Origin: a virus
Lineage: Duplodnaviria; Heunggongvirae; Uroviricota; Caudoviricetes
Length of the DNA: 4,546 nt
Strand: one strand, 5' to 3'
Virus record (IMG/VR): IMGVR_UViG_2684622582_000010
Coordinates: 1 to 4,546 of that record
The notes beneath the pieces were generated by a model that saw only the letters and a list, made by a program, of their open reading frames with translations, was not told the origin of the DNA and searched no databases. Both the position numbers and the translations under genes were made by a program. Shown here piece by piece: positions 2,834 through 4,209 of the stretch. Every line of letters starts with the position of its first letter. The stretch's first letter is position 1.

Positions 2834-3409
2834 TCACTCTCCTTTGATGCGAATGCCAGCGGCGCGGGAATCATTCCATCGCTTTACTTCTTCACGAATT
2901 ACGTCAATGCATTCTTTCGAATCCATTAGGTAATCTTCATCAAAAAGACGTTCCTGTTCGTTTTCTATCGCAACAATGATTGCTTCAACTAACTTTTGTG
3001 CCTGAGAATCACTTTCTAACTCTGCTATGCGCTTACTCCCATCCGAGATAACACCTTCGTAATATTCACGCTGTTCGTTGAGTTTTGATTTTGTCTCTTC
3101 AAGCTCAGCAACCAGTTTTCGAAGCCCTTCAATCTCACCATTGCGAGCAATGAGGTCGCGGCACATGCTTTCGTTCTCATCCAGTAGTGCCTGCACTACT
3201 TCTGGGTTGAAAGCTGCGATATAACGAGCGTTGTTCTCTGCGTTTTTCTGTCCATCAAAGCCGGTCCATTTGATAACGTCTTCACATCGTTTATCACCGG
3301 GCGTATGCACCGCATACGTACCAGTACCCGGCGAAATAAATGCGACCCATTCGCCTTGTGTTGCCTGTTTTGCTATCTCACGCAGTGCCTGATAGTTAAT
3401 CTCGCTCAC
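2834..3409 (-). CDS. Ea22/Ead-like protein with central coiled coil (191 aa)
   Basis: GTG start at 3409-3407 overlapping the upstream stop (GTGA), with GAGAGG upstream. N-terminus MSEINYQALREIAKQATQGEW resembles the conserved N-terminus of lambdoid Ea22-family proteins as recalled. Residues ~90-150 are Leu/Glu/Lys-rich with heptad character (IEGLRKLVAELEETKSKLNEQ...). It occupies the ea22 position of a lambda-like early-left operon. Confidence 0.7.
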   Translation of the reverse strand: MSEINYQALREIAKQATQGEWVAFISPGTGTYAVHTPGDKRCEDVIKWTGFDGQKNAENNARYIAAFNPEVVQALLDENESMCRDLIARNGEIEGLRKLVAELEETKSKLNEQREYYEGVISDGSKRIAELESDSQAQKLVEAIIVAIENEQERLFDEDYLMDSKECIDVIREEVKRWNDSRAAGIRIKGE

Positions 3410-3627
3410 TTCGAACCTCTCTGTTTACTGATAAGCTCCAGATCCTCTTGGCAACTTGCACAAGTCCGACAACCCTGAACGACCAGGCGTCTTCGTTCAT
3501 CTATGGGATCGCCACACTCACAACAATGAGTGGCGGATATAGTCTGGTAGTTCAGACGACGCATTTTTATTGCTGTGTTGCGCTGTAATTCTTCAATTTC
3601 TGATGCTGAATCAATGATGTCTGCCAT
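3406..3627 (-). CDS. TraR/DksA-family C4-type zinc-finger protein (73 aa)
   Basis: CxxC-(17)-CxxC in ...THCCECGDPIDERRRLVVQGCRTCASCQE..., matching the TraR/DksA C4 zinc-finger pattern (compare F-plasmid TraR C.ACGNPIPE.RR...C..CQ). Size is typical of phage TraR-like proteins. Confidence 0.82.
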   Translation of the reverse strand: MADIIDSASEIEELQRNTAIKMRRLNYQTISATHCCECGDPIDERRRLVVQGCRTCASCQEDLELISKQRGSK

Positions 3628-3682
3628 CTTTCATTAATCCCTGAATTGTTGGTTAATACGCTTGAGGGTGAATGCGAATAAT

Positions 3683-3703
3683 AAAAAAGGAGCCTGTAGC
3701 TCC
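3683..3703 (-). terminator. Intrinsic-terminator-like hairpin (minus strand) between the hypothetical ORF and the TraR-like gene
   Basis: Stem GGAGC (3689-3693) / GCTCC (3699-3703) with a 5-nt loop. On the minus-strand RNA it is followed by UUUUUU (reverse complement of 3683-3688) and then AUUAUU. It lies 23 nt after the stop at 3726. The stem is short, so this is a weaker call. Confidence 0.35.
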
Positions 3704-3725
3704 ATGATGATTTTGTTTTTCATGC

Positions 3726-4007
3726 TCACCGTTCCTTAAAGACGCCGTTTAACATGCCGATCGCCTGGCTTAAATGAGTCGGTGTGAATCCCATCAGCGT
3801 TACCGTTTCGCGGTGCTTCTTCAGTACGCTACGGCAAATGTCATCGACGTTTTTATCCGGAAACTGCTGTCTGGCTTTTTTGATTTCAGAATTAGCCTGA
3901 CGGGCAATGCTGCGAAGGGCGTTTTCCTGCTGAGGTGTCACTGAACAAGCCCCATGTCGGCAAGCATAAGCACACAGAATATGAAGCCCGCAGCCAGAAA
4001 AATGCAT
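3726..4007 (-). CDS. Hypothetical protein, start uncertain (93 aa from ATG 4007, or 71 aa from GTG 3941)
   Basis: Open frame ending at TGA 3728-3726. The ATG at 4007 directly follows an in-frame TGA and has no SD. The in-frame GTG at 3941-3939 has GGGG 8 nt upstream and overlaps the stop of the 27-aa ORF (GTGA). The Cys/His-rich N-terminal 22 residues look like a frame artefact. No family recognised. Confidence 0.5.
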   Translation of the reverse strand: MHFSGCGLHILCAYACRHGACSVTPQQENALRSIARQANSEIKKARQQFPDKNVDDICRSVLKKHRETVTLMGFTPTHLSQAIGMLNGVFKER

Positions 4008-4021
4008 TCAGTGGTTGTCAT
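3938..4021 (-). CDS. Candidate small hydrophobic peptide (27 aa), not in the ORF track
   Basis: ATG at 4021-4019 overlaps the orf63-like stop (ATGA); stop TGA at 3940-3938 overlaps the downstream GTG (GTGA). My hand translation is MTTTECIFLAAGFIFCVLMLADMGLVQ, a single transmembrane-helix-like peptide. No SD of its own; it would depend on translational coupling. Confidence 0.3.
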   Translation of the reverse strand: MTTTECIFLAAGFIFCVLMLADMGLVQ

Positions 4022-4209
4022 ACCTGGTCTCTCTCATCTGCTTCTGCTTTCGCCACCATCATTTCCAGTTTTTGTGAAAGGGATGTGGCTAACGTATGAA
4101 ATTCTTCGTCTGTTTCTACTGGTATTGGCACAAACCTGACTCCAATTTGAGCAAGGCTATGTGCCATCTCAATGCTCGTTCTTAACTCAACAGGAGATGC
4201 TTTGTGCAT
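4018..4209 (-). CDS. Small protein equivalent to lambda orf63 (63 aa), unknown function
   Basis: ATG at 4209-4207 with GAGGGG upstream. Length (63 aa), position (second gene downstream of exo) and the 28-nt overlap with the preceding 60-aa gene match lambda orf63 as I recall it. Sequence identity is not verified. Confidence 0.65.
   Translation of the reverse strand: MHKASPVELRTSIEMAHSLAQIGVRFVPIPVETDEEFHTLATSLSQKLEMMVAKAEADERDQV

What the first reader, a model, noticed from the sequence alone, without database searches (positions are those of the whole stretch)
3938..4021. Untracked 27-aa hydrophobic ORF wedged between orf63-like and the next gene
A short frame (MTTTECIFLAAGFIFCVLMLADMGLVQ by my hand translation) starts with an ATG overlapping the orf63-like stop (ATGA) and ends with a TGA overlapping an in-frame GTG of the downstream ORF (GTGA). 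Such perfect 4-nt overlaps at both ends are the signature of translational coupling and are unlikely by chance. The peptide is essentially a single transmembrane helix, like small membrane-active phage and prophage peptides. It is too short to appear in the ORF track.
Basis: seen in the sequence. Interest (0 to 1): 0.5.

Follow-up and report, generated by a model that had tools for sequence, protein, structure and literature searches.

The report
Unannotated 27-residue membrane peptide gene
Between two small early genes of lambda-like phages (orf63 and orf61) sits a conserved 27-codon gene for a tiny, greasy, probably membrane-embedded peptide; reference annotations omit it, and the literature has instead read this DNA in the wrong frame as the start of orf61.

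Summary
A 27-codon ATG ORF (MTTTECIFLAAGFIFCVLMLADMGLVQ) lies at 3938-4021 on the minus strand. Its ATG overlaps the orf63 stop (ATGA). Its TGA overlaps the GTG that NCBI's PGAP pipeline uses as the start of the 71-aa orf61-like gene (GTGA).

Comparative evidence favours a real coding gene:
- Lambda encodes the identical peptide, and all four nucleotide differences from the window are synonymous.
- Across about 300 loci, substitutions are 13 synonymous to 9 non-synonymous in this frame (27% synonymous expected, p=0.0018). No other frame shows a comparable excess.
- There are no indels, and the only stop found removes the last codon in one locus.
- The ATGA junction is kept when orf63 is replaced by an unrelated methyltransferase gene.
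- Distant orf61 homologues start at the 71-aa position and lack the "93-aa" extension, which is therefore a wrong-frame reading of this ORF.
- The RNA is not unusually structured, and it matches no RNA or protein family.

The peptide is strongly hydrophobic (one transmembrane-length segment) and has no Lys or Arg. Its function is unknown. The most likely role is a small inner-membrane peptide made early from the pL operon, whose translation also relays ribosomes to orf61.

The sequence already exists as a "hypothetical protein" in some GenBank and UniProt records, so this is a new member of a known kind. Translation itself was not tested.

The parts
3938..4021 (-). 27-codon small ORF (plus stop) encoding MTTTECIFLAAGFIFCVLMLADMGLVQ, a predicted single-transmembrane peptide
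   Evidence: ORF list. Identical peptide in lambda with 4 of 4 synonymous differences. 13 synonymous to 9 non-synonymous across about 300 loci, p=0.0018, no indels. Hydropathy.
4018..4021 (-). ATGA overlap: small-ORF start codon (4021-4019) overlapping the orf63 stop TGA (4020-4018); proposed termination-reinitiation site
   Evidence: Sequence. ATG kept in 307 of 307 loci. The last orf63 codon varies (GTA or GCA) but always ends in A. The same ATGA junction occurs with an unrelated methyltransferase gene upstream.
3938..3941 (-). GTGA overlap: small-ORF stop TGA (3940-3938) overlapping the GTG start (3941-3939) of the 71-aa orf61-like gene
   Evidence: Sequence. PGAP and phage 21 annotations start the gene here. 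Base 3941 varies only between A and G, giving ATG or GTG for orf61 and CAA or CAG (Gln27) for the small ORF.
4018..4209 (-). orf63 (DUF1382), the upstream gene to which the small ORF is coupled
   Evidence: Pfam DUF1382, E=7.7e-31. Annotations.
3726..3941 (-). True orf61-like gene, 71 aa, GTG start; the downstream gene coupled to the small ORF
   Evidence: PGAP WP_000188870.1. Distant homologues in Klebsiella, Yersinia and Enterobacter phages are 72-74 aa, and their CDS starts coincide with residue 1 of the 71-aa form. 21 synonymous to 24 non-synonymous in this frame, p=0.01.
3942..4007 (-). The '22-residue N-terminal extension' of the 93-aa Orf61 annotation (ATG at 4007); rejected as coding in that frame because it is the small ORF read out of frame
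   Evidence: 4 synonymous to 18 non-synonymous in that frame. No Shine-Dalgarno sequence before the ATG at 4007. Absent from distant homologues. A published review notes that residues 1-23 of the Phi24B Orf61 model do not fit (PMC8614690).
3950..3953 (-). GGGG, a weak Shine-Dalgarno-like element for orf61 lying inside codons 23-24 of the small ORF, 8 nt upstream of the GTG
   Evidence: Sequence. Phage 21 annotators placed the orf61 ribosome-binding site at the equivalent position. The third base of codon 24 varies (GGA, GGG, GGT), so the element is not strictly fixed.

Best explanation
This is a genuine but generally unannotated protein-coding gene of the early leftward (pL) operon of lambda-type phages. 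It encodes a 27-residue, very hydrophobic peptide that most likely inserts into the host inner membrane as a single helix.

Proposed mechanism, step by step:
1. Shown from sequence: the ORF lies on the same strand as exo, orf60a, orf63, orf61, orf73, xis and int. It fills the only sizeable gap in a chain of genes that otherwise overlap by about 4 nt.
2. Inferred: ribosomes terminating at the orf63 UGA reinitiate at the overlapping AUG (AUGA). The nearest AGG is too close to the AUG to act as a normal Shine-Dalgarno sequence. In the alternative module, a methyltransferase gene supplies the same AUGA junction plus a GGGAGG.
3. Inferred from hydropathy: residues about 6-26 form a transmembrane segment. 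The peptide has no Lys or Arg and two acidic residues.
4. Inferred: termination at its UGA, which overlaps the weak (G/A)UG start of orf61, passes ribosomes on to orf61. The small gene is thus both a product and a translational relay.
5. Speculative: in the membrane, the peptide modulates a host or phage membrane protein and contributes to the mild 'pro-lytic' phenotypes so far credited to orf61.
For: - ORF and overlaps are confirmed.
- Lambda has the identical peptide, and all 4 nucleotide differences in the 84 nt are synonymous.
- Across 300 loci (25 nucleotide haplotypes, 10 peptide variants, 268 loci with the identical peptide) there are 13 synonymous and 9 non-synonymous events against 27% synonymous expected (p=0.0018). 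13 of 22 events fall at codon position 3 (p=0.012). The common polymorphisms are synonymous, and the non-synonymous ones are rare and mostly conservative (T3A, F8L, A21V, V26I, D22N).
- There are no indels. All pattern matches have a constant length.
- Internal control: the neighbouring 31-aa ORF, tested on the same loci, shows no synonymous excess (7 to 17, p=0.55).
- The ATG is kept in 307 of 307 loci. The mosaic joint with the methyltransferase module falls exactly at the ATG and recreates ATGA.
- The most divergent E. coli copy (91% nucleotide identity) keeps the ORF intact.
- The RNA is less structured than shuffled sequence (z=+2.0) and matches no Rfam family. No minus-strand promoter or terminator is predicted inside it.
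- The peptide is strongly hydrophobic.
- Some gene callers have already predicted the exact peptide (981 contigs; UniRef A0A0A2SGE8_ECOLX).
Against: - There is no direct evidence of translation. The lambda ribosome-profiling paper (Liu et al. 2013) is not in the held library. A review that summarises it lists only a 7-aa and a 31-aa extra ORF in this region, not a 27-aa one.
- The family is narrow. All homologues are at least 92% identical and occur in E. coli lambdoid phages only. Distant orf63 and orf61 homologues have no such ORF. The selection test therefore rests on only 22 substitution events.
- No canonical Shine-Dalgarno sequence precedes the ATG in the orf63 context.
- The peptide lacks the positive charges that usually flank transmembrane helices.
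- It matches no known protein family.
Confidence: 0.7

Rival explanations
1. The ORF is translated, but only the act of translation matters. It is a relay that carries ribosomes from orf63 to the weak start of orf61, and the peptide itself has no function.
For: - Both ends have 4-nt overlaps.
- orf61 has a GTG or ATG start with only a weak GGGR Shine-Dalgarno-like element.
- The ORF is absent from distant relatives, where orf61 is coupled directly to a methyltransferase gene.
- The peptide matches no family and has an odd charge pattern.
Against: - A pure relay would need only an open frame, not a conserved amino-acid sequence.
- Yet synonymous changes are enriched (13 to 9, p=0.0018) and 268 of 300 loci encode the identical peptide despite 25 nucleotide haplotypes.
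- The neighbouring 31-aa ORF shows what an unconstrained small frame looks like in the same data.
Confidence: 0.13
2. The ORF is a chance open frame in a non-coding 77-nt spacer or leader between orf63 and orf61. Its conservation reflects recent common ancestry or an RNA or DNA regulatory element.
For: - Half of the shuffles of the inner 76 nt stay open in this frame.
- The whole block is 95-99% identical among E. coli phages, so conservation alone says little.
- RefSeq PGAP does not call the ORF in any listed genome.
Against: - The substitution pattern is frame-specific, with a third-position excess (p=0.012) and a synonymous excess (p=0.0018).
- There are no indels in about 300 loci.
- The RNA folds less well than shuffled sequence (z=+2.0) and has no Rfam match.
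- No promoter or terminator is predicted on this strand.
- The mosaic joint falls exactly at the start codon.
Confidence: 0.08
3. The DNA encodes the N-terminus of a longer Orf61: 93 aa from the ATG at 4007, as annotated in 933W and Phi24B, or the 61-aa lambda orf61 starting at 31024. On this reading the 27-aa frame is irrelevant.
For: - Many GenBank records and PHROG 303 use the 93-aa form.
- The exo-xis literature treats it this way.
Against: - That frame shows no constraint (4 synonymous to 18 non-synonymous, p=0.91).
- Its upstream start differs between phages: ATG at 4007 here, ATG 30 nt further upstream in lambda, TTG in the methyltransferase context.
- Distant homologues are 72-74 aa and begin at the 71-aa start, directly overlapping the upstream gene.
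- PGAP picks the 71-aa form.
- Published models could not place residues 1-23.
Confidence: 0.03
4. It is a small hydrophobic toxin of the type I toxin-antitoxin kind (as in Hok, Ibs, TisB), kept in check by an antisense RNA.
For: Its size and hydrophobicity resemble those toxins (the comparison is from general knowledge).
Against: - No promoter-like site is found on the opposite strand near the ORF.
- There is no stable fold or Rfam match.
- The ORF has no leader of its own. It is embedded in an operon through 4-nt overlaps at both ends.
- It carries no positive charges, unlike most such toxins.
Confidence: 0.03

Closest known systems
Small (<50 aa) single-transmembrane proteins of enterobacteria (such as KdpF, CydX, AcrZ, MgtS, YohP), found by conservation and ribosome-binding-site models (Hemm et al. 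2008, cited in PMC4195576)
   Same: It is 27 aa, is dominated by one hydrophobic helix-length segment, was missed by standard annotation, and is recognisable only through frame-specific conservation. Like kdpF and cydX, it sits inside an operon with overlapping start and stop codons.
   Different: It is phage-encoded. It has no sequence similarity to any of them (no Pfam, NCBIfam or PDB hit). It has no flanking Lys or Arg. Its operon neighbours Orf63 and Orf61 are small soluble proteins rather than a membrane complex. Its partner and function are unknown.
Lambda 'orf61' (NP_040613, 61 aa) and Stx-phage 'Orf61' (93 aa; 933W L0070, Phi24B)
   Same: They occupy the same DNA. The annotated N-termini of these proteins cover 66-84 nt of the small ORF.
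   Different: They use a different reading frame. Their N-terminal residues (MHFSGCGLHILCAYACRHGACS...) are the small ORF read out of frame and show no constraint. The real Orf61 is the 71-aa protein starting at 3941. Lambda's own copy also carries a +1 A insertion in an A-run that truncates it.
The 31-aa ORF between orf61 and orf73. This is probably 'orf2313' of the lambda ribosome-profiling study as cited in PMC8614690; the identification is inferred from its length and position only.
   Same: It is another unannotated small ORF in the same operon, joined to the preceding gene by a 4-nt overlap (window 3634-3729; lambda 30620-30715).
   Different: That ORF contains an intrinsic-terminator-like hairpin and shows no synonymous excess in the same loci (7 to 17). 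The 27-aa ORF does show a synonymous excess, and the review does not list it.
Type I toxins (Hok, Ibs, ShoB, TisB, DinQ)
   Same: They are short hydrophobic peptides of similar length.
   Different: There is no antisense RNA or promoter, no leader of its own, no basic residues and no homology. It is operon-embedded and translationally coupled.

Membership tests
Bacterial/phage small membrane proteins (a functional class, not a homology family) | Length of 50 aa or less, with one predicted transmembrane helix | tested here: met
   27 aa. The best 21-residue window has mean Kyte-Doolittle 2.42 and a summed Hessa-scale energy near 0.
Bacterial/phage small membrane proteins (a functional class, not a homology family) | Frame-specific evolutionary conservation (purifying selection on the peptide) | tested here: met
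   13 synonymous to 9 non-synonymous, p=0.0018. Third-position excess p=0.012. No indels. Only within a narrow clade of at least 91% nucleotide identity.
Bacterial/phage small membrane proteins (a functional class, not a homology family) | Demonstrated translation and membrane localisation | not testable with these tools
   No ribosome-profiling or proteomic data were accessible. Liu et al. 2013 is not held. The peptide was not found in the O157 Sakai small-gene supplements or in full-text searches.
Translationally coupled operon gene | Start codon overlapping the upstream stop, and stop codon overlapping the downstream start, both conserved | tested here: met
   ATGA is kept in 307 of 307 loci and with two unrelated upstream genes. 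(A/G)TGA is kept at the downstream end. The coupling itself is inferred, not measured.
Orf61 protein family (PHROG 303), as an N-terminal extension | Constraint in the Orf61 reading frame across 3942-4007 | tested here: not met
   4 synonymous to 18 non-synonymous in that frame, p=0.91.
Orf61 protein family (PHROG 303), as an N-terminal extension | The extension is present in distant family members | tested here: not met
   Klebsiella, Yersinia and Enterobacter phage homologues are 72-74 aa. Their CDS starts align with residue 1 of the 71-aa form and overlap the upstream methylase gene.
Type I toxin-antitoxin toxins | A cis-encoded antisense RNA with its own promoter, and a structured mRNA leader | tested here: not met
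   No plus-strand promoter-like site lies within or next to 3938-4021. The fold z-score is +2.0. There is no Rfam hit. Consensus scans are weak evidence.
Type I toxin-antitoxin toxins | Toxicity on over-expression | not testable with these tools
   This needs an experiment.
Known RNA families (Rfam 15) | A covariance-model match at or near the gathering score | tested here: not met
   The only hit in the window is a sub-threshold Leu_leader match at 1677-1735, elsewhere in the window.

The most novel reading that the evidence does not exclude
The 27-residue membrane peptide is a young, lineage-specific gene of E. coli lambdoid phages. It, rather than Orf61, may account for at least part of the lysis-versus-lysogeny and prophage-induction phenotypes published for 'delta-orf61' mutants. 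In lambda itself the real orf61 is already broken by a frameshift, yet deleting the annotated orf61 (which removes the small ORF) still had effects (PMC6213356). A speculative route would be action on a host inner-membrane factor such as the FtsH/HflKC system that controls CII.
Probability: 0.12. Interest if true: 0.65.

Novelty: new member of a known kind. Interest (0 to 1): 0.42.

Why it matters
Lambda is the most studied temperate phage. The exo-xis block is also under active study in Shiga-toxin phages, because it shifts the balance between lysogeny and toxin-releasing induction.

If this ORF is a gene, three things follow:
- The lambda and Stx-phage reference annotations lack a conserved gene that is present in 58% of complete E. 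coli genomes.
- 'Orf61' has been studied with the wrong N-terminus. This applies to the structure models, the yeast two-hybrid clones, and the 61-aa and 93-aa forms.
- The published delta-orf61 alleles deleted two genes at once, so their phenotypes need to be re-assigned.

This is a correction and an addition to a well-known system, not a new kind of biology.

Tried and rejected
- Lambda ribosome-profiling paper (Liu et al. 2013) and the Casjens & Hendrix lambda review: neither is held in the library, so direct translation evidence could not be checked.
- Full-text search for the peptide sequence or its UniProt accession: no papers.
- Supplements of the O157 Sakai small-gene ribosome-profiling paper: no occurrence.
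Structure prediction was not attempted, because the peptide is below the tool's 30-aa minimum.
- Genome-collection scan with Orf63: it returned almost only lambda DNA contaminating unrelated assemblies and added no diversity.
- Distant orf63 and orf61 homologues (Klebsiella, Enterobacter, Yersinia phages): they carry no small ORF at the junctions. They could not extend the conservation test, but they fixed the true orf61 start.
- Phage phi458 and PhiR63_2, with intermediate-identity hits: these are degraded copies and were uninformative.
- Structured RNA, leader or attenuator: rejected. The fold z-score is +2.0 and there is no Rfam hit.
- Lipoprotein: rejected by inspection. No lipobox precedes either Cys.
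- Remnant of a deleted gene: no support. tblastn of the peptide against 50,697 phage records found nothing below 92% identity except one chance hit.

Full report
**Setting.** The window is the int-to-exo ("exo-xis") segment of a lambdoid prophage, and every gene is on the minus strand. In transcription order the genes are:
- the end of exo;
- orf60a (Pfam DUF1317);
- orf63 (DUF1382, 4018-4209);
- an orf61-like gene;
- a 31-aa ORF;
- orf73 (TraR/DksA zinc finger, 3406-3627);
- Ea22-like and other accessory genes;
- xis (1052-1270) and int (1-1074).

The 551 bases around the finding are 95-99% identical to 180 phage records (lambda, 21, 434, 933W, VT2-Sakai, Phi24B and others) and to 4,792 places in 3,334 of 5,426 complete E. 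coli genomes.

**The observation.** The ORF list reports 3938..4021 on the minus strand, 27 aa, ATG start, MTTTECIFLAAGFIFCVLMLADMGLVQ. The minus strand reads ATGA at 4021-4018, so the start codon overlaps the orf63 stop. It reads GTGA at 3941-3938, so the stop codon overlaps a GTG that is in frame with the long ORF 3726-4007. That GTG is the start used by PGAP for WP_000188870.1 (71 aa) and by the curated phage 21 record. Both leave a 77-nt unannotated gap, which the small ORF fills exactly. Other records start the downstream gene at the ATG at 4007 instead (93 aa, '933W L0070'), which overlaps the small ORF in another frame. Shuffling shows that the open frame by itself is unremarkable: 51% of shuffles stay open. 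The full arrangement has a rough post-hoc probability of about 1.6%.

**Which frame is under selection.**
- Lambda carries the same ORF (NC_001416 30925-31008 including the stop, minus strand) with an identical peptide. The four nucleotide differences from the window (ACT/ACG, GCT/GCA, GGG/GGA, CAG/CAA) are all synonymous in the 27-aa frame. Three of them are non-synonymous in the '93-aa' frame (C6S, A20T and V23M in the extension).
- I collected about 300 loci from IMG/VR, metagenomes, phage records and E. coli genomes. The selection anchors lay in the flanking genes, not in the ORF.
- The 84 nt occur as 25 nucleotide haplotypes but only 10 peptide variants, and 268 of 300 loci encode the identical peptide.
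- Counting each site-and-allele combination once and excluding the overlapped ends gives 13 synonymous and 9 non-synonymous events. With 27% synonymous expected at the observed transition bias, p=0.0018. In addition, 13 of 22 events fall at codon position 3 (p=0.012).
- The other two sense frames give 6 to 16 and 4 to 18. One antisense frame gives the weak echo (p=0.025) that is usual for the frame sharing third positions. The same echo is seen for orf61.
- The frequent polymorphisms are synonymous. The non-synonymous ones are rare and mostly conservative (T3A, E5K, C6S, I7T, F8L, A21V, D22N, V26I).
- There are no indels. Every pattern match had the same length. The single stop found is Q27*, in one locus.
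- The signal is at least as strong as for the accepted neighbours: orf61 is 21 to 24 (p=0.01), and orf63 was 16 to 26 (p=0.095) in the first sample.
- As a control, the adjacent 31-aa ORF, examined on the same loci, shows no synonymous excess (7 to 17, p=0.55).
- The most divergent E. coli copy found (91% identity) still has an intact ORF, with three synonymous changes plus A21S and D22G.

**The junctions.**
- The ATG is present in 307 of 307 loci across nine upstream sequence variants. When the last orf63 codon changes (GTA to GCA) its third base stays A, which preserves the ATG.
- In a second, common version of the block (65 of the 307 collected loci), orf63 is replaced by an unrelated N6-adenine methyltransferase gene. 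Homology to the window begins exactly at the small ORF's ATG. The methyltransferase stop again overlaps it (GCATGACAACC), and a GGGAGG lies 4 nt upstream.
- A mosaic joint that falls precisely at a start codon and recreates the overlap is what is expected if the small ORF is the first gene of a 'small ORF + orf61' module.
- At the other end, base 3941 varies only between A and G. This keeps Gln27 (CAA or CAG) and keeps a start codon (ATG or GTG) for orf61.

**The true orf61.** Distant homologues of the 71-aa protein (29-47% identity; Klebsiella, Yersinia, Enterobacter, Vibrio and Erwinia phages) are annotated at 72-74 aa. Their CDS starts coincide with residue 1 of the 71-aa form and overlap the upstream methylase gene by 4 nt. 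They have no N-terminal extension and no small ORF. Distant orf63 homologues are likewise followed directly by the next gene. Two conclusions follow. First, the 93-aa 'Orf61' extension is not part of the family. Second, the 27-aa ORF is restricted to the E. coli lambdoid block: tblastn finds 175 phage records that are all at least 92.6% identical, and nothing more distant.

The review of exo-xis proteins notes that lambda Orf61 'appears to be truncated' and that residues 1-23 of the Phi24B model had to be left out (PMC8614690). The alignment explains both points. Lambda has one extra A in an A-run (A7 versus A6), which frameshifts the real orf61. This insertion occurs in 21 of 300 loci, and at least 13 of those 21 are lambda DNA contaminating unrelated assemblies. 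The annotated lambda orf61 (30839-31024) is therefore a composite: an out-of-frame reading of the small ORF, then 22 real codons, then a shifted tail.

**Non-coding alternatives.**
- As RNA, the region folds less well than 195 of 200 shuffles (z=+2.0).
- No Rfam family matches it.
- No promoter-like site or terminator-like hairpin is predicted on the minus strand within it. No plus-strand promoter-like site that could drive an antisense RNA lies nearby.

These results argue against a riboswitch, leader or attenuator, and against a type I toxin-antitoxin arrangement.

**The product.** The peptide has GRAVY 1.62. Its residues 6-26 (CIFLAAGFIFCVLMLADMGLV) average Kyte-Doolittle 2.42. There is no Lys or Arg, and there are two acidic residues, E5 and D22. 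D22 is not invariant, since D22N and D22G both occur. No Pfam, PHROG, NCBIfam or PDB match was found beyond noise from hydrophobic segments. No lipobox precedes either cysteine (by inspection).

**Prior knowledge.**
- The exact sequence exists in the large protein collection (981 contigs; 'hypothetical protein BE964_26140'; UniRef A0A0A2SGE8_ECOLX), together with single-residue variants. Some gene callers have therefore predicted it.
- It is not annotated in the lambda RefSeq record, in phage 21 or in phi345. No separate feature for it is listed under the matches in 933W or in any RefSeq E. coli genome row returned.
- The exo-xis literature does not mention it. The review cites ribosome profiling as adding only a 7-aa and a 31-aa ORF in this region. 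The 31-aa one fits lambda 30620-30715; that identification is mine, based on length and position.
- The Gdansk delta-orf61 mutants replaced 'the nucleotide sequence of orf61' with an 87-nt scar. This removes the small ORF as well. The effects were stronger in Phi24B than in lambda (PMC6213356).

**Most likely mechanism.** Shown: a conserved, frame-constrained, indel-free 27-codon ORF inside the pL operon, joined to both neighbours by 4-nt overlaps. Inferred:
- Translation starts by termination-reinitiation at AUGA. The AGG just upstream is too close to the AUG to be a normal Shine-Dalgarno sequence in the orf63 context.
- The hydrophobic product inserts into the inner membrane.
- Termination at UGA hands ribosomes to the weak (G/A)UG start of orf61, whose only Shine-Dalgarno-like element (GGGR) lies inside codons 23-24 of the small ORF.

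Speculative: the peptide modulates a membrane protein and contributes to the phenotypes assigned to orf61.

My probabilities are:
- about 0.7 that it is a translated gene whose peptide sequence matters;
- about 0.13 that only the act of translation matters;
- about 0.08 that it is a non-coding coincidence;
- a few per cent each for the Orf61 N-terminus reading and for a type I toxin.

**Verdict.** This is a new, uncharacterised member of a familiar class: small membrane proteins missed by annotation. Its useful side effect is a correction of the orf61 gene model in lambda and Stx phages. Interest is moderate.

Noticed in passing
window 3726-4007; lambda NC_001416 30839-31024 (L004 540-725): The lambda reference 'orf61' (61 aa) looks like an annotation artefact. 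Lambda has one extra A in an A-run (A7 versus A6 in the window and in 279 of 300 loci), which frameshifts the real 71-aa gene. The annotated ORF begins upstream in the wrong frame across the small ORF. The 93-aa 'Orf61' of Stx phages has a spurious 22-residue N-terminus for the same reason.
   Followed up: partly
window 3634-3729 (minus strand); lambda 30620-30715; L108 2427-2528: A 31-aa ORF (GTG or ATG start, overlapping the orf61 stop by 4 nt) lies between orf61 and orf73. It contains an intrinsic-terminator-like hairpin (GGAGC-TACA-GGCTCC followed by a T-run, 3703-3689). It is probably the 'orf2313' of the lambda ribosome-profiling study. In about 296 loci it shows no synonymous excess (7 to 17). 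Yet Enterobacter phage CobraSix has a similar peptide tail (PFLLLAFTFNRINRLFEE). The similarity may reflect the terminator rather than a protein.
   Followed up: partly
L104-L108 (Klebsiella, Yersinia, Enterobacter phages): Distant homologues of the 71-aa Orf61 usually sit immediately after a DNA methyltransferase gene, overlapping it by 4 nt in four of the five phages examined (Klebsiella and Enterobacter). In the two Klebsiella phages with a TraR/DksA-like gene, Orf61 sits just before it. In E. coli, a variant of the block also has a methyltransferase in place of orf63 (L229, L230). This suggests an older 'methyltransferase, orf61, traR' arrangement.
   Followed up: partly
L005-L023 (genome-contig scan): Lambda DNA (94% Orf63 identity, i.e. 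lambda itself) turns up in assemblies labelled Nanosynbacter, Shewanella, Bradyrhizobium, Pseudomonas, Kitasatospora, Paenibacillus and others. 'Campylobacter phage CJLB-4' (MW057783.1, 48,361 bp) also carries the lambda block. These are almost certainly spike-in or cloning-vector contamination.
   Followed up: no
L322 501-680 (E. coli O111:H8 strain 7-15 45A): One prophage has a recombination joint inside the small ORF, after about codon 11. From there unrelated sequence follows, orf61 is lost, and PGAP marks a pseudogene fragment. This is a decayed or mosaic variant, not a case of a disrupted small ORF with both neighbours intact.
   Followed up: partly
window 3729-3941: RefSeq names the orf61-like protein 'cell division protein ZapA' in some records (such as 933W). 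The Pfam ZapA match is below threshold (E=0.013; 16.2 bits against a 23.8-bit cutoff), so that name is probably over-annotation.
   Followed up: partly
cluster 1 (P0006, P0007): Two 428-aa glycosyltransferase-like proteins are listed as members of the same 90% cluster as the 27-aa peptide. This is evidently a clustering artefact of the protein collection.
   Followed up: no
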